Sequence record: OZ346158.1
Direction: 5' to 3' (one strand)
DNA length: 64,000 bases
Source: a phage
Positions within the stretch are counted from its first letter, which is position 1. Each line of letters opens with the position of its first letter. Below, piece by piece: positions 5,382 to 9,410 of the stretch. The notes beneath the pieces are model-generated. The model was not told the DNA's origin and made no database searches. It saw only the letters and a program-made list of their open reading frames with translations. Position numbers and translations under genes: made by a program.

Positions 5382-5464
5382 CAAATACCTATTGTAATTT
5401 ACAGAAGGGGATGCTAAAATAGTGTCTCCTTCTATGTTGTTCAAATAAAATCGGAGATTCCATA

Positions 5465-5830
5465 ATGGAACAAATGAACGATCAAGCGTCGGTTGCGATG
5501 AACGAGCAAGAACAACCTCAAGAATTTTTCTTAGGGTTAAGTAAAGATCAAGTGTCTCTTTTGCTAGTGCTTTCTTCTTTCATGGGAAGACTTCAGGAGC
5601 TCACACAACAACCGGAGGCTGAACAATTATTTCAGGCTCTGCGTGAAGAAGAAAAATATCGTCGTTTGGACTATGCCTTAGGTTGGGTAGCTCAACAACG
5701 AGATATGCTGATGGCCCTCTCTGGGACCACAAGTTTTGCAATGGGCCTGTTGGCTCAAGTTCAGGACAAATTAATTCAAGCAGGGTTTGCACACACGGCA
5801 AACACTAACGAAGAACAAGGAGACAAATAA
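5465..5830 (+). CDS. hypothetical protein
   Basis: ORF with SD aatcggagatt. Confidence 0.55.
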   Translation: MEQMNDQASVAMNEQEQPQEFFLGLSKDQVSLLLVLSSFMGRLQELTQQPEAEQLFQALREEEKYRRLDYALGWVAQQRDMLMALSGTTSFAMGLLAQVQDKLIQAGFAHTANTNEEQGDK

Positions 5831-7101
5831 TGAGCGTTATTCAACAATTCGCTAACCCGATGAATCCGCGTGAAACTGTTTTACTGGCTCACGGCATGAT
5901 TAAACGCGTCAGCATCAAGCCTATCAAAGGTGCTGATCCTACAACAGGTATTAAAACCACTGTGTGGCAAGGTAAGAAAATTGAGTCCAGCCACACCATC
6001 TCTTTACTGATTTCTGAACTGGATTCCTCTGATAACCTGCTTCAAGGTGGTGAAGAAGTCTGGATCAGCATGGGTGATAAACTGCTTAAACCGGGTCATC
6101 AAGACTCTGTCTCTGTTAAGATTGATGACAAGTGGGAAACCGTAACGCCAGGATGGATCGTAAATATCCCTTTGAAGGCAAACGAGCATAACGGTAAGAC
6201 CTACTACAAGGGCTCACTGGCTAAGATGGTTAAGCTGGGTGCAGGGGAGGCTCCAGCAGCGACTCAGCAGCAAAAACAGCAACAAGGTGCACAATCACAA
6301 GGCCAGAAGCAGAAACCTCAGCAGAATGCCAATCAGGACGTTTTACGCATCTATGGCGATGTGACTCAGATTGTTGGCAACGTGGTTACTGTTAATGACC
6401 ACAAGATTGGCGAAGGTGCTATGGTTGTCACTGATGAGCAGCTTAAAGACCTGGTGGTAGGTGGTCGTGTTGCAGCCATTGTTGACAAAGACACCGGAAA
6501 CATTATCAGTGGTTTCAAAGCCTACCCACCTAAGGCAGAGAACGGCACTCAAGGCTCTGGTGGCAAGCGTAAATCCTCTTACGACCCTATTGGTGTGGAG
6601 ACGGGACATAGCATCAATGCGTTGCAAATCATCCTGGATCGCGGGTTTAAGGTAGACGACCCACTAGGTGTGGCTAAAACACTGCACGTAGTCACCATTG
6701 AGCTTAAGAAAGAGTATGCTCAAGCCACCAACCGAACTGAAGATGAAGTAGGTGCCAGTGTCGGTAATGCGGTGTTGAACGCTTGTCGCCGTATTGACAA
6801 GAAAACGAAAGTTGATGATTTTGCAGCGGCAATTACTGCAGAAGCAAAAGATGTCTTGACTAATCTGGCTGAGCCGTTGTACGATTGGATCAAGAACGGT
6901 GCTGGGTCCACTGACCATCAAGAACCTCAAGCTGCCAAACAGGAAGCTGCTTCACAGCAAAATACTGTAGACGCTCCTCCTGTAAATGACGAGGAAGATG
7001 ACCCAATGGATCAGAATCCAGCACAGTATGACTTCTGTGATGACATACCTTTCGCTCCGGTGGGTTTGCAATATGGCAAAAGTAGAATCCACGCATTGTA
7101 A
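5830..7101 (+). CDS. putative DNA-binding protein with SSB-type acidic tail motif (DDIPF) and Gln-rich linker
   Basis: Near C-terminus ...YDFCDDIPF as in bacterial SSB tails, but followed by 15 extra residues that overlap the next gene. Confidence 0.45.
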
Positions 7102-7696
7102 GAGGTGCATCAAGTGTGGAGAGGTGAAAAACCTCTCCGAGTTCTACAAACATCCAAAGATGTCTGACGGTCATCTTAATAAGTGCAAAGAGTGTTGCAA
7201 GAAGGCCAGCAGGGAGGCTGACCAATTTTCCCACGACTCTTCAGAAAAAGGTGTGATCCGCGTGTTGTACAAGACTCAAAAGTGCAACAGTAAGAAGAGA
7301 GGTCACCCACCTCCGACTTACACCAAAAAAGAGTTTAAGGAGTGGCTATACCTAAACGGTTACAAAGAGTTGTATGATCAATGGGTAGCCAGCGGATACG
7401 ACAAAAGGAAAAAGCCTTCTTGTGACAGGATAGATGATTTCAAAGGGTACTCTTTTGATAATATCCGTTTAACGACTTGGGGAGAAAATAAAGACAAGCA
7501 GACAGAGGATATTCTGTTACATAGAAGCACCAGCGGTAGACGGTGCAAAAATGTAAGGAGGTTGGACATGAATGGTAACGTTCTTAAAGAATGGGTATCC
7601 CACAATTCTTGCCGAAGAGAAACAGGGATATGTGTTGATTACTACATTCATGAAAAAATTCCAGCTCCCGATGGATACCTCTATGAATACTTCTAA
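7070..7696 (+). CDS. HNH endonuclease with CxxC zinc finger (free-standing)
   Basis: [10 protein letters not shown]...CKECC plus [25 protein letters not shown] core. Confidence 0.75.
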
Positions 7697-7711
7697 CATC
7701 TAGTTAACATA

Positions 7712-7739
7712 GCCCTGCCCGAAAGGGTGGGGCATTTTT
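7712..7739 (+). terminator. putative intrinsic terminator
   Basis: GC hairpin cccgaaaggg followed by TTTTT. Confidence 0.45.
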
Positions 7740-7758
7740 GTATAAGGAGATCTGAAAA

Positions 7759-8175
7759 ATGACATTAGAAGATATCATTGTTAAGCCTGAGAACTATGAC
7801 CAATACAACCTGTCAACTCAATCTGTAGACCTTGGATGCGCCACGGTCAGTGCGTGGCTGGTTAACGGAAAAGAGCTGGATAAATGCTTAGAAGCTCACA
7901 TGTCTATTAACAAGTTTCTGGATGAAAATACTCACTGGCTTGAGGGTGCAGGCGTATATGCTTCATGGTTGGAGAGTATGGGATTCGACTACCAATCTGA
8001 AGAGGGGTGGTGGAGCTATTTAGCTATCTGCCCAGAGACGCTGCAATGCTTCATGAAATATTCTGAAGATTTAGAGTATCGCGCTGTGGTTGACAGTGCT
8101 ATTGCCCGTTATAGCCGTAAACCTTTTTCCCACGACATTAAAACTGTGGAAGAGTTTGTTGAAGTTTTCTGTTGA
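7759..8175 (+). CDS. hypothetical protein
   Basis: ORF with SD aaggagatc. Confidence 0.55.
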   Translation: MTLEDIIVKPENYDQYNLSTQSVDLGCATVSAWLVNGKELDKCLEAHMSINKFLDENTHWLEGAGVYASWLESMGFDYQSEEGWWSYLAICPETLQCFMKYSEDLEYRAVVDSAIARYSRKPFSHDIKTVEEFVEVFC

Positions 8176-8270
8176 CACAGGTTGAAAGGTGTGCAATTAT
8201 AACTTCATAGACGGGAGGACGTGATGAACGAAGAAAACTGGGATGTATAACTAACAGGAGGCCACTGCCC

Positions 8271-8536: not shown

Positions 8537-8962
8537 ATGATCTATGAAATGCCAAAACTGATTCGTGATGATGCCCAAAACGCTCACACCATTATTATGG
8601 GCAAACGTATGGATATTATTTGTCATAAAGATTTCTGGGAAGGAAGTTACTTCACAGAGTATTTTGGTAAACTGGACAATGGTCTGCTGATCCAGTTCTA
8701 CACCGATGCGGAAAACAACATTCACTGGGAGTTCGAAACTGAAGATATCCATAAACTTTTCACCTTCCTCGGTATTAAGGTCGAGGCCAAGTTTGAAGAA
8801 GGTGAGTGCGACGATTGTGGATTCTATGAGGTAACAGATTTCTACCTTCCAAGTGGTAAAAATCTCTACTACGAAAGCCACTTCGGCAACTCAAATATGC
8901 CACAGGGTTGGGATGAGTTTTTGGAAATTGCAGAAGAGGAGCTGGAATACCGTGATTATTGA
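8537..8962 (+). CDS. hypothetical protein
   Basis: ORF with SD cggagaact. Confidence 0.55.
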   Translation: MIYEMPKLIRDDAQNAHTIIMGKRMDIICHKDFWEGSYFTEYFGKLDNGLLIQFYTDAENNIHWEFETEDIHKLFTFLGIKVEAKFEEGECDDCGFYEVTDFYLPSGKNLYYESHFGNSNMPQGWDEFLEIAEEELEYRDY

Positions 8963-9410
8963 TACTGTAAAGGGAGATCTAATCTCCATTTTCAAGAAAG
9001 GGTCAGGCCACATGATCCACGGTTGTAACTGCTTTCACACAATGGGTGCAGGTATAGCGAAAGATATTGCCCGTGAGTTCCCTCAAGCACTGGCAGCCGA
9101 CAAAGAGACTGCTTATGGTAATCTAGACAAGCTGGGTATGTTTTCTTGTTGGGAGCATTTTGCCAAGGCCAGGGTCGTATATGGAATCAACCTGTATACC
9201 CAGTTCTACCCAGGGCCCAATGCTGAATACTTCTCAATCATGAAAGGTTTTGAGCGAGTCAACGAGGTATTCAAAGGTATGTCATTGCCGTTCTACATTC
9301 CTAAAATCGGATGCGGTATTGGAGGTCTAAAGTGGAAACATGTAGAAGATGTAATTAATCTTGCAACCACAGATATTGATGTGGTTGTAGTAGAGTACAA
9401 AAAGTGTTGA
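8952..9410 (+). CDS. macro domain protein (ADP-ribose binding / ADP-ribosyl hydrolase-like)
   Basis: HGCNCFHTMGAGIAKDI resembles macrodomain N-A-N...G-G-G-V motif; about 150 aa; start codon (GTG 8952 or internal ATG) uncertain. Confidence 0.6.
   Translation: MIIDTVKGDLISIFKKGSGHMIHGCNCFHTMGAGIAKDIAREFPQALAADKETAYGNLDKLGMFSCWEHFAKARVVYGINLYTQFYPGPNAEYFSIMKGFERVNEVFKGMSLPFYIPKIGCGIGGLKWKHVEDVINLATTDIDVVVVEYKKC

What the first reader, a model, noticed from the sequence alone, without database searches (positions are those of the whole stretch)
5830..7696. SSB-type DDIPF tail motif buried 15 residues from the C-terminus, overlapped by an HNH endonuclease gene
Bacterial SSBs end exactly with ...DDDIPF, the partner-protein docking tip. 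Here DDIPF is followed by [15 protein letters not shown], and the HNH gene start (7070) overlaps this extension. Either the HNH insertion displaced the original stop, masking the tail, or this is not a canonical SSB.
Basis: inference. Interest (0 to 1): 0.45.

Follow-up and report, generated by a model that had tools for sequence, protein, structure and literature searches.

The report
Capped SSB tail carried by homing endonuclease
In this rV5-like coliphage, the SSB-like protein's copy of the E. coli SSB docking tip (…DDIPF) is followed by a 15-residue peptide that is conserved in many phage SSBs, is apparently undescribed, and in this genus travels with a selfish homing-endonuclease gene that starts inside it.

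Summary
ORF 5830-7101 (423 aa) ends …[23 protein letters not shown]. The next gene overlaps it by 29 nt, but its ATG is at 7073, not 7070.

The window is a Vequintavirus (rV5-like, 99.4% identical to MaxBurger/Bas54). The protein is not a canonical SSB. It has an OB fold, a second beta domain, a four-helix bundle and a disordered tail that copies the E. coli SSB tip. Its orthologue Bas52_0087 was recently reported as the trigger of the DRT10 defence.

Within the genus the extension is strictly linked to the endonuclease gene. About 64 of 116 genomes lack that gene and stop right after F. Eighteen carry another allele of it with a free tip. Thirty-two, including rV5 itself, carry this allele.

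The extension is nevertheless not read-through junk. The motif AP[IV]GLQY-x3-[LIF]-x2-[CA]-[MILF] directly follows the tip in distant orthologues with no endonuclease gene. It also follows the tip in dozens of canonical phage and prophage SSBs. It is under purifying selection in the SSB frame (dN/dS about 0.14).

The endonuclease is PacI-like (HNH fold, no Pfam hit). Its family habitually sits at the 3' ends of genes that encode an SSB-type tip.

What the cap does is inferred only. It removes the free Phe carboxylate that known SSB partners bind, so it probably masks or redirects the tail.

The parts
5830..7101 (+). SSB-like protein gene (423 aa), member of phrog_4477; orthologue of Bas52_0087
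   Evidence: ORF list. phrog_4477 at 2e-173 over residues 1-408. 99.8% identical to the MaxBurger protein. D252 and Y351, the published DRT10 escape sites in Bas52_0087, are both present.
5830..6249 (+). N-terminal beta domain (aa 1-140), OB fold
6340..6525 (+). Second small beta domain (aa 171-232), preceded by a disordered Q-rich linker (aa 141-170)
   Evidence: AF2 strands 171-232 at pLDDT 84-89; residues 143-168 below 50. This domain is absent from the shorter phi92-like relatives. The preprint calls it a second OB fold.
6586..6894 (+). Four-helix bundle (aa 253-355), the most conserved part of the family
   Evidence: AF2 helices 253-270, 278-300, 304-321 and 328-355 at pLDDT about 90-96. 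Conserved motifs D..G.ETGH.IN and [12 protein letters not shown]. The escape substitutions D252V and Y351C flank or lie in it.
6895..7029 (+). Disordered, poorly conserved acidic/Pro/Gln-rich linker (aa 356-400)
   Evidence: pLDDT below 50. Length and sequence vary across the family.
7030..7053 (+). SSB-type tip DFCDDIPF (aa 401-408), internal in this allele
   Evidence: Aligns to the E. coli SSB C-terminus. P407 and F408 are invariant. Alleles without the endonuclease gene end here.
7054..7101 (+). 15-residue conserved cap [15 protein letters not shown] plus stop codon
   Evidence: The same motif occurs in distant orthologues and in canonical phage SSBs. dN/dS is 0.135 in this frame, against 0.70 and 2.9 in the other two frames.
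7059..7064 (+). GGTGGG, a Shine-Dalgarno-like sequence 8 nt upstream of the endonuclease ATG, inside the cap codons (P-V-G)
   Evidence: Read directly from the sequence. Its function is inferred.
7073..7696 (+). Free-standing homing-endonuclease-like gene (207 aa): N-terminal CxxC…CxxC zinc ribbon plus a PacI-like HNH-type nuclease motif ([24 protein letters not shown])
7040..7215 (+). Mosaic patch that distinguishes this allele from the other endonuclease-bearing allele (bov10K2 type)
   Evidence: Window versus bov10K2 identity in 60-nt bins is 27-58% for 7030-7209. It is 93-100% in all upstream bins. Downstream it recovers through 88% and 92% to 93-100% from 7330.
7694..7743 (+). 3' junction: the TAA now ending the endonuclease gene is the position of the SSB-like gene's stop in endonuclease-free alleles; it is followed by the shared intrinsic terminator
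   Evidence: FFH2 reads …CCGTTT TAA CATCTAGTTAACATAGCCC…; the window reads …TACTTC TAA CATCTAGTTAACATAGCCC…. Terminator stem at 7712-7733 plus a T run.

Best explanation
ORF 5830-7101 encodes the rV5-family SSB-like protein. It consists of an OB fold, a second beta domain, a four-helix bundle and a disordered tail. The tail ends in a copy of the host SSB docking tip.

In this allele the tip is capped by a 15-residue peptide. The peptide is not read-through sequence. It belongs to a conserved, selected C-terminal module, AP[IV]GLQY-x3-[LIF]-x2-[CA]-[MILF]. In phages of gamma-proteobacteria this module directly follows …DDIPF, both in this family and in canonical SSBs.

In Vequintavirus the cap arrived, and still travels, with a free-standing PacI-like HNH homing-endonuclease gene. 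A patch of about 175 nt was placed between the F codon and the old stop codon. It comprises the tip codons, the cap and the first ~40 endonuclease codons. The most likely route is homing or gene conversion from a cap-bearing donor, with the 5' crossover in the conserved tip-coding sequence.

The endonuclease is translated from the ATG created by the cap's Y-G codons (caaTATGGc, 7073). A Shine-Dalgarno-like GGTGGG lies inside the cap codons. Expression is therefore probably coupled to the highly expressed SSB-like gene.

Functional consequence (inferred): the cap replaces the free alpha-carboxylate of the terminal Phe with a peptide bond. Known SSB partners such as ExoI, chi, RecQ, RecO and DnaG bury that Phe and bind the C-terminal carboxyl and acidic residues. 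The capped tail should therefore dock poorly on host SSB-interacting proteins. It instead presents a new hydrophobic C-terminus that probably engages a different, still unknown, conserved partner.

Shown: anatomy, allele series, conservation and selection of the cap, linkage to the endonuclease gene, folds. Inferred: direction and mechanism of transfer, translational coupling, effect on partner binding.
For: Identity and fold:
- Searches place the window in rV5-like phages and the protein in phrog_4477.
- The only sequence match to solved structures is the E. coli SSB tail.
- The orthologue Bas52_0087 was independently described as SSB-like with an FDDDIPF tip and as the DRT10 trigger. D252 and Y351 are conserved here.

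Allele series in 116 Vequintavirus records:
- About 64 have no endonuclease gene and end …DDIPF*.
- 18 have a second endonuclease allele with its own TGA, SD and ATG and a free tip, …DDSIPF*.
- 32 have cap plus endonuclease, including rV5 itself.
- The junctions lie exactly at the F codon and the TAA.
- The two endonuclease-bearing alleles differ only in a patch at about 7030-7210.
- A relative 83% identical (L039) keeps the cap plus 5' and 3' stubs of a deleted endonuclease gene.

The cap is ancient and selected:
- It is present without any endonuclease remnant in SSE121, KB57, Mydo, alia, Kashira and L017.
- It is present in 38 viral contigs and 8 bacterial genomes, mostly on canonical SSBs. 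Only 3 of those 46 are followed by the endonuclease family.
- Third codon positions vary most, and dN/dS is 0.135 in the SSB frame only.

The endonuclease family is specialised on this site:
- The same zinc-ribbon N-terminus starts at the same embedded ATG in nieznany and PsgM04F.
- It abuts the cap in L068, L075 and L077.
- 4 of 4 distant family members sampled sit directly after genes ending in an SSB-type tip.

Against: - There is no direct evidence on what the cap binds, or on whether capping weakens host-partner docking.
- AF2 leaves the whole tail, cap included, disordered and undocked (pLDDT below 50).
- The actual donor of the patch was not found. The closest cap-plus-endonuclease loci (L013, L037) are clearly diverged from it on inspection of the alignment (identity not computed).
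- The tip stays strongly conserved in capped proteins (…PPMDFDDDIPF-AP…). That is hard to reconcile with simple inactivation. It suggests the tip still works, either internally or after processing.
- Capped and uncapped alleles coexist in nearly identical, viable phages. The cap may therefore be close to neutral in this genus.
- The DRT10 preprint reports protection against Stephanstirmvirinae as a group. Some of these carry capped orthologues (JohannJBalmer). If that protein is the trigger there too, capping does not prevent sensing.
- The selection test rests on 15 codons and 12 related sequences.
- The viral and genome pattern scans fixed the first seven cap residues by design. Only the residues after QY are independent evidence in those loci.
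Confidence: 0.6

Rival explanations
1. Displaced stop. The endonuclease insertion removed the original stop codon, and the 15 extra residues are meaningless read-through into the inserted DNA.
For: Within Vequintavirus the extension occurs only together with the endonuclease gene. Endonuclease-free alleles stop right after F. The extension's DNA doubles as the SD, start codon and first 9 codons of the endonuclease gene.
Against: The same motif follows the tip in orthologues 26-40% identical that have no endonuclease gene or remnant. It also follows the tip in canonical SSBs of unrelated phages. Synonymous changes dominate in the SSB frame (dN/dS 0.135). The APxGLQY part lies upstream of the endonuclease start, so an overlapping frame cannot explain its conservation. 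Another allele of the same endonuclease supplies an immediate TGA, so read-through is not forced.
Confidence: 0.05
2. Hitch-hiker. The cap is a functional module elsewhere. In Vequintavirus it is only a passenger of the endonuclease gene, co-converted flanking sequence that is neutral or slightly deleterious and has no role in this phage.
For: The cap is strictly linked to one endonuclease allele. About 82 of 116 genomes do well with a free tip. The globular domains of capped and uncapped alleles are about 99% identical, so no co-adaptation was needed. L039 keeps the cap merely as part of a deletion scar. Co-conversion of flanking markers by free-standing homing endonucleases is established for T4 SegG and gene 32 (PMC2988022, listed).
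Against: Thirty-two sequenced isolates, including the type phage, keep the cap open reading frame intact. The cap is equally intact in the 76%-identity clade and in L013, where it accompanies the same endonuclease. A functional peptide placed on a conserved docking tip is unlikely to be without effect.
Confidence: 0.2
3. Pro-peptide or degron. The cap is removed by a protease to expose the free tip at the right time. Alternatively, its hydrophobic C-terminus (…YAL, …HAL, …NCM, …HCI) targets the SSB for ClpXP-, ClpAP- or Lon-type degradation, limiting its lifetime.
For: The tip stays fully conserved under the cap, as expected if it is used after uncapping. The cap always ends in a hydrophobic residue preceded by a small one. 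That resembles C-terminal degrons such as ssrA …YALAA; this comparison is from my own knowledge and was not tested.
Against: No protease is known to cut F|AP precisely. Processive proteases would not stop at the tip. The strict conservation of the N-terminal half of the cap (APIGLQY) is not typical of C-terminal degrons. No data bear on this.
Confidence: 0.1
4. Translational control peptide. The tip plus cap (about 22 residues, the length of the ribosomal exit tunnel) acts as a nascent arrest or coupling peptide. It would set expression of the gene starting inside or just after it.
For: The cap is always at the extreme 3' end of the ORF. Downstream genes start inside it (endonucleases; a non-HNH ORF in L062 and L066) or 8-11 nt after it, with the SD overlapping the stop.
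Against: In SSE121, KB57, Mydo and Kashira the cap is followed by a terminator and a convergent gene, so there is nothing to regulate. No known arrest motif is present.
Confidence: 0.05

Closest known systems
E. coli SSB C-terminal tip (SSB-Ct, …PPMDFDDDIPF-COOH) and its docking on SSB-interacting proteins
   Same: The same acidic-hydrophobic motif at the end of a long disordered tail following an OB fold. Relatives of this protein carry up to 11 residues identical to E. coli SSB.
   Different: Here the Phe is not C-terminal; 15 more residues follow. [quoted passage not shown] An internal tip cannot offer that carboxylate. The globular part is also not PF00436.
Bas52_0087, the Vequintavirus SSB-like trigger of the DRT10 (UG17) reverse-transcriptase defence (bioRxiv 10.64898/2026.04.29.721553)
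   Same: An orthologue with the same numbering; D252 and Y351 are present. It has the same predicted architecture and tail.
   Different: Bas52_0087 is described as ending in a free FDDDIPF. The window allele (MaxBurger/Bas54 type) is capped and has C in place of the first D. The preprint does not mention the cap, the endonuclease gene or the allele series.
Phage T4 segG next to gene 32: a free-standing homing endonuclease beside the phage SSB gene, with co-conversion of flanking sequence
   Same: A free-standing endonuclease gene sits immediately beside the phage's ssDNA-binding protein gene. It is present or absent among close relatives, and flanking coding sequence is carried along (PMC2988022; details of SegG from my own knowledge).
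   Different: The nuclease family differs: SegG is GIY-YIG, this one is PacI-like HNH. Here the co-converted flank changes the functional end of the neighbouring protein, and the endonuclease borrows its start codon from it.
PacI restriction endonuclease and I-HmuI (HNH, beta-beta-alpha-metal nucleases)
   Different: No Pfam HNH hit. The usual DH of HNH_3-type motifs is DR here, as it is in PacI. There are extra helical and C-terminal domains. Cleavage activity and target are untested.
Phage SSBs whose C-termini carry phage-specific functions (T7 gp2.5 C-terminal Phe; N4 SSB C-terminal activation region)
   Same: These are precedents, from my own knowledge, for phage ssDNA-binding proteins using the last residues of the tail as a dedicated partner-binding element.
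   Different: There is no sequence similarity. In those cases the functional element is itself the terminus, not an add-on placed after a host-type tip.

Membership tests
Canonical bacterial/phage SSB (Pfam PF00436 type) | OB-fold ssDNA-binding domain | tested here: met
Canonical bacterial/phage SSB (Pfam PF00436 type) | Sequence membership in the SSB domain family | tested here: not met
   No Pfam hit at E<=0.1. NCBIfam gives only a tail match at E 0.6. The PDB profile search matches only the C-terminal tail.
Canonical bacterial/phage SSB (Pfam PF00436 type) | Disordered linker ending in an acidic tip whose Phe is the C-terminal residue | tested here: not met
   The linker and tip are present, but F408 is followed by 15 residues. 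The feature is met in endonuclease-free alleles of the same gene.
Canonical bacterial/phage SSB (Pfam PF00436 type) | ssDNA binding and oligomerisation | not testable with these tools
   Needs biochemistry. The preprint only predicts an oligomerisation interface.
rV5/phi92-type SSB-like proteins (phrog_4477; Bas52_0087 family) | Full-length similarity, including the helical-bundle motifs D..G.ETGH.IN and [12 protein letters not shown] | tested here: met
   phrog_4477 at 2e-173 over residues 1-408. 70 database clusters. Invariant D252, G259 and G312.
rV5/phi92-type SSB-like proteins (phrog_4477; Bas52_0087 family) | Residues whose substitution lets phage escape DRT10 (D252, Y351) | tested here: met
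   Both are present at the same positions.
Conserved tip cap (AP[IV]GLQY-x3-[LIF]-x2-[CA]-[MILF], defined here) | Starts immediately after …[DE][DES][IV]PF and ends the protein within 14-16 residues | tested here: met
   The window has [15 protein letters not shown] directly after DDIPF. The same layout occurs in all other examples.
Conserved tip cap (AP[IV]GLQY-x3-[LIF]-x2-[CA]-[MILF], defined here) | Purifying selection on the peptide in the SSB frame | tested here: met
   Twelve loci found through the globular domains, not through the cap, were compared. dN/dS is 0.135, against 0.70 and 2.9 in the other frames. Entropy by codon position over codons 1-7 is 0.37, 0.09 and 1.21. The region is short and the sample small.
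Conserved tip cap (AP[IV]GLQY-x3-[LIF]-x2-[CA]-[MILF], defined here) | Occurs independently of the endonuclease gene | tested here: met
   No endonuclease-like sequence was found by tblastn in L003, L006-L008, L017, L021, L022 or L040. The same holds for 43 of 46 capped SSB loci recovered by the pattern scans, most of them canonical SSBs. In the window's own genus, however, the cap is always linked to the gene.
HNH (beta-beta-alpha-metal) homing endonucleases | HNH/His-Me finger fold | tested here: met
HNH (beta-beta-alpha-metal) homing endonucleases | Sequence match to a curated HNH model, with the catalytic His of the DH/HNH motif | tested here: not met
   No Pfam or NCBIfam hit even at E<=10. 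The motif reads SCDRIDD…N…N with an invariant Arg where HNH_3-type enzymes have His. PacI has the same VDR.
HNH (beta-beta-alpha-metal) homing endonucleases | Present or absent at one fixed site among otherwise near-identical genomes, next to a conserved target gene | tested here: met
   52 of 116 Vequintavirus records carry it at the same junction and the rest lack it. Related genes occupy the same position after tip-encoding genes in unrelated phages.
HNH (beta-beta-alpha-metal) homing endonucleases | Site-specific cleavage of the endonuclease-free allele and preferential inheritance | not testable with these tools
   Needs in vitro cleavage assays and mixed-infection crosses.

The most novel reading that the evidence does not exclude
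The 14-16-residue peptide AP[IV]GLQY… is a previously unrecognised, horizontally mobile short linear motif. It caps the universal SSB docking tip in phage-encoded SSBs of two unrelated architectures. By doing so it switches the tail from 'engage the host SSB interactome' to a masked or differently partnered state. A PacI-like homing endonuclease family that homes to tip-coding DNA moves this switch between phages. That creates natural capped and uncapped allele pairs. These pairs could differ in recombination or replication partner choice. They could also differ in visibility to defences that monitor SSB-dependent host functions, such as DRT10 and ExoI.
Probability: 0.3. Interest if true: 0.8.

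Novelty: new variant of a known kind. Interest (0 to 1): 0.6.

Why it matters
The free …DDIPF-COOH end of SSB is regarded as the hub through which more than a dozen genome-maintenance proteins are recruited. C-terminal additions are generally taken to destroy that function. A conserved, selected peptide sitting directly on that end in many phage SSBs means one of two things: phages have a way of tuning or re-targeting this hub, or the tip can work internally. Either would interest people working on SSB, recombineering (SSAP-SSB tail specificity) and phage defence.

The case is unusually easy to test. The orthologue is already a known defence trigger (DRT10). The widely distributed BASEL collection also contains all three natural alleles in nearly isogenic phages:
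- capped plus endonuclease: MaxBurger/Bas54, DrSchubert, EmilHeitz;
- endonuclease with a free tip: WalterGehring, HeinrichReichert;
- no endonuclease: for example Bas52.

It also documents a homing-endonuclease family specialised on SSB-tip coding sequence. This is a clear example of a selfish gene changing the functional end of its neighbour.

Tried and rejected
- Pfam and NCBIfam on both proteins gave nothing useful.
- A PDB profile search with the SSB-like family found only the tail match.
- Literature searches for DDIPF with phage, and for the cap strings APIGLQY, APVGLQY, IPFAPIG and IPFAPVG, found no paper holding the cap motif. The library lacks most subscription papers, so absence of a description is not proven.
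- phmmer with the last 30 residues against 1.84 billion representatives gave 3 hits. Two were fragments of capped canonical SSBs and one was a spurious repeat protein. The query was too short to be informative.
- I tried to get per-phage DRT10 data for Bas54 against Bas52. Neither the text nor the list of held supplements gives per-phage values; the heat map is a figure and is not held.
No capped-to-uncapped ratio could be given. None of 102 sampled free-tip genes had the zinc-ribbon endonuclease within 330 nt.
- Beta-clamp-binding motif (QL[SD]LF / QLxLxL) and PIP-box readings of the cap were considered by eye and rejected. The hydrophobic positions do not fit, especially in the G-type caps (QYGRNF, QYARHA).
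- FtsZ C-terminal-peptide, CaaX and PDZ-ligand likenesses were considered. They were not pursued because no test was available.
- Conservation of the cap through the overlapping endonuclease frame or an RNA/DNA signal was rejected. Third positions of the SSB frame vary most, and the best-conserved half lies upstream of the endonuclease start.
- Docking of the cap onto the protein's own domains was not seen in the AF2 monomer.
Full report
**What is in the window**

The window is a Vequintavirus (rV5-like E. coli myovirus). Positions 5400-8200 are 99.4% identical to phage MaxBurger and 94-98% identical to other rV5-like genomes that cover the whole query, including rV5 itself. ORF 5830..7101 encodes 423 aa ending …[28 protein letters not shown]. 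DDIPF is residues 404-408 (nt 7039-7053). The extension is nt 7054-7098 and the stop is 7099-7101.

The next gene is in another frame. Its ATG is at 7073, not 7070, which is an in-frame AAT. It ends at 7696, so the overlap is 29 nt. An intrinsic terminator follows at 7712-7733.

**What the 423-aa protein is**

Pfam finds nothing. PHROGs places the protein in phrog_4477, annotated 'unknown function', at 2e-173. That profile ends exactly at residue 408, the F of DDIPF. An AlphaFold2 model built on 31 diverse homologues has mean pLDDT 75.9. It shows:
- a beta domain at aa 1-140;
- a disordered Q-rich linker;
- a second small beta domain at aa 171-232;
- a four-helix bundle at aa 253-355;
- a disordered tail from aa 356 to the end.

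An April 2026 preprint reaches the same structural reading for the orthologue Bas52_0087: 'two OB-fold domains', a C-terminal FDDDIPF tip. It shows that protein is required to trigger the DRT10 reverse-transcriptase defence, with escape substitutions D252V and Y351C. Both residues are present here, and D252 is invariant in the family.

**The allele series in the genus**

Among 116 Vequintavirus records there are three states at this junction.
- (a) About 64 have no endonuclease gene. The protein ends …AFDDDIPF*. The sequence TAA-CATCTAGTTAACATAGCCC… and the terminator follow directly.
- (b) Eighteen (bov10K2, slur16, WalterGehring and others) have an endonuclease gene. The SSB-like protein ends …EFDDSIPF*. 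The insert supplies TGA, a GAGG Shine-Dalgarno sequence and its own ATG.
- (c) Thirty-two (rV5, MaxBurger, DrSchubert, EmilHeitz, JES2013 and others, and this window) have the 15-residue extension, with the endonuclease gene starting inside it.

In both (b) and (c) the extra DNA lies exactly between the F codon and the TAA that terminates the SSB-like gene in (a). That TAA now terminates the endonuclease gene.

Alleles (b) and (c) differ in one patch at about 7030-7210. Identity there is 27-58% in 60-nt bins. It is 93-100% in all upstream bins, and downstream it recovers through 88% and 92% to 93-100% from 7330. The patch covers the tip codons, the extension and the first ~40 endonuclease codons.

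Within this genus, then, the buried tip is a consequence of one endonuclease-linked mosaic.

**Why the extension is not read-through junk**

The 70 database clusters of this family are dimorphic. They end either at …D[DE]DIPF or at …DIPF followed by [AS]P[IV]GLQY[GA]xxx[ILV][YH]x[LIMF]. The second form occurs in proteins only 26-40% identical to the window protein, after linkers that are otherwise unalignable.

In several lineages there is no endonuclease gene and no remnant of one:
- Seunavirus SSE121 ends …PPMDFDDDIPFAPIGLQYGRNFIHCI*, followed by a terminator and a convergent tail gene.
- Mydoviruses KB57 and Mydo have the same layout.
- Justusliebigvirus alia is followed by a methyltransferase-like gene.
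- Serratia phage Kashira and contig L017 also lack one.

These are documented, with tblastn.

I compared twelve such loci, found through the globular domains rather than through the extension. Third codon positions carry most of the variation: entropy by position over the first seven codons is 0.37, 0.09 and 1.21. Pairwise dN/dS is 0.135 in the SSB frame, against 0.70 and 2.9 in the other two frames. The best-conserved half (APxGLQY) lies upstream of the endonuclease start, so the overlapping gene cannot explain it.

**The cap is wider than this family**

I back-translated DIPFAP[IV]GLQY and scanned IMG/VR, which gave 38 contigs. Most hits are canonical SSBs of 40-55 kb phage contigs. Their N-termini read M..RGVNKVILVGNLGQDPE.RY, and they end …PPMDFDDDIPF-APIGLQYP[AQN]LL[NML]C[MI]*.

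One example, L049, lies in an Erf-like annealing protein - exonuclease - SSB - methyltransferase module. The same scan of one genome per bacterial species found only 8 hits in 185,579 genomes. These were Vibrio (a 45-kb plasmid), Pseudoalteromonas, Glaciecola, Oceanisphaera, Providencia and a Parasphingorhabdus MAG. Six of the eight are clearly canonical SSBs.

The first seven cap residues were fixed by the search pattern. The conserved residues after QY, and the constant length of 14-16 residues, were not.

The cap therefore appears to be a module of mobile-element SSBs of gamma-proteobacteria. It always sits directly on the tip, and it occurs in two unrelated SSB architectures. No paper in the searchable library contains the motif strings.

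**The endonuclease and its relation to the cap**

The 207-aa product has no Pfam or NCBIfam hit. It matches phrog_1035 ('endonuclease VII') at 3e-41 and belongs to a family of 258 clusters. Invariant features are an N-terminal CxxC…CxxC zinc ribbon (C.KCG..K.L.EFYKH..M.DGH.NKCKEC) and the motif KPS.DR.DD.KGYS..N..L.TW..N.

A second group of genes shares the same zinc ribbon fused to a classical HNH domain (HAHHCDY…). In Phapecoctavirus nieznany and in PsgM04F such a gene starts at the same place as here. That place is the ATG formed by the cap's Y-G codons (caaTATGGt), with the same 29-nt overlap. Related genes abut the cap of canonical SSBs in L068, L075 and L077.

I looked up four distant members of the window-type family, and all four lie directly after a gene ending in an SSB-type tip. 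These were …DFSDIPF* on a PF00436 SSB, …DDDETIPF*, …DDLLDDIPF*, and a helicase with …SDEDIPF plus an unrelated 24-residue extension. The family is thus specialised on the 3' ends of tip-encoding genes. That is a sensible homing target, because the coding sequence is constrained.

A relative 83% identical (L039) has the cap but no endonuclease gene. It still carries a 5' stub (…CATCAAGTGTG) and a 3' stub (…GATACTTCTA…) of one. Loss of the endonuclease therefore leaves the cap behind.

**Best-supported history (inferred)**

The cap is an old, functional feature of some SSB tails. Zinc-ribbon homing endonucleases settled just after it and adopted the embedded ATG. In the window the Shine-Dalgarno-like GGTGGG at 7059-7064 lies 8 nt upstream of that ATG.

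When such an element entered Vequintavirus, whose resident allele ends at F, the upstream crossover fell in the last stretch of homology, the tip codons. The cap came along. The sharp patch between alleles (b) and (c) suggests a second crossover inside a resident endonuclease gene.

The donor itself was not found. L013 and L037 have the same arrangement but are clearly diverged in the patch on inspection of the alignment (identity not computed). A cap-free, endonuclease-free allele with the c-type tip (DFCDDIPF*, L211) shows that recombination has since reshuffled the flank.

**What the cap does (inferred, not shown)**

Published structures and mutagenesis place the ultimate Phe of SSB in a hydrophobic pocket on ExoI, chi, RecQ, RecO and DnaG. 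[quoted passage not shown] A peptide bond after F408 removes that carboxylate and adds bulk.

The simplest expectation is weakened docking on host partners. The tail would also gain a new hydrophobic C-terminus that may serve another conserved partner.

Points against simple masking:
- The tip remains perfectly conserved under the cap.
- Capped and uncapped alleles coexist in viable, near-identical phages.
- AF2 gives no structure for the tail.

The rivals are a neutral hitch-hiker in this genus, a removable pro-peptide or degron, and a nascent-chain control peptide. They are listed with their tests. I could not obtain per-phage DRT10 data to compare Bas52 (free tip) with Bas54/MaxBurger (capped).

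**Verdict**

It is wrong in treating the extension as a by-product.

The SSB-like identity of the protein is already in the literature. As far as I can tell, the following are new:
- the conserved cap on SSB tips;
- its spread across two SSB architectures;
- its linkage to a PacI-like endonuclease family that targets tip-coding DNA.

Interest is moderate to high because the cap sits on a motif whose free end is considered essential. The needed isogenic phages are also already in a public collection.

Noticed in passing
phage records MG065644-MG065690 (hits to window 5400-8200): Sixteen to 21 GenBank records named 'Campylobacter phage' with host C. jejuni are about 97% identical to E. coli rV5-like phages across this region. 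The host label looks doubtful, perhaps from contaminating coliphages in the preparations.
   Followed up: no
L087:1-1476 and 1501-2118: A ResIII/DEAD-type helicase ends …SDEDIPF followed by an unrelated 24-residue extension (SLSIAIPLASLSLYLEWYNLII*). A window-type endonuclease gene follows directly. This is a second 'buried tip', on a helicase, and it may be a genuine displaced stop.
   Followed up: partly
L062 and L066 (canonical SSB 3' ends): These canonical SSBs have caps almost identical to the window's ([32 protein letters not shown]). A non-HNH ORF of 97-101 aa overlaps each cap. In L066 it starts at the embedded ATG (MAKAGSTRYL…, compare the window's MAKVESTH…). In L062 the first start is an upstream TTG and the embedded ATG gives …MEKAESTHYL…. 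The embedded start is thus used by different downstream genes.
   Followed up: no
window 7073-7696 versus L004:2967-3461: One N-terminal zinc-ribbon module (C.KCG..K.L.EFYKH..M.DGH.NKCKEC) is combined with two different nuclease domains. One is PacI-like with a 'DR' motif and the other is classical HNH ('HAHH'). This is domain shuffling within endonucleases that occupy the same site.
   Followed up: partly
window 6313-6351 (aa 162-174 region) versus L211: The Q-rich linker between the two beta domains varies in length. L211 lacks 13 residues ([13 protein letters not shown]) but is otherwise about 99% identical.
   Followed up: no
window 8853-9410: This ORF (185 aa, …GCNCFHTMGAGIAKDIAREFP…) corresponds to the gene annotated as a Macro/Poa1p-like (ADP-ribose-binding) protein in bov10K2 and as 'phosphatase' in FFH2.
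   Followed up: no
KY683736 / NC_041937 (Escherichia phage V18), region matching window 6700-7800: V18 matches only the 3' half of the b-type junction query and has no feature annotated there. It may carry a partly deleted endonuclease gene, another stage of decay besides L039.
   Followed up: no
window 5828-5832: The upstream gene (5465-5830, phrog_7310, unknown function) ends TAA overlapping the ATG of the SSB-like gene (ATAATG). The same arrangement occurs in FFH2 and bov10K2 and suggests translational coupling.
   Followed up: no
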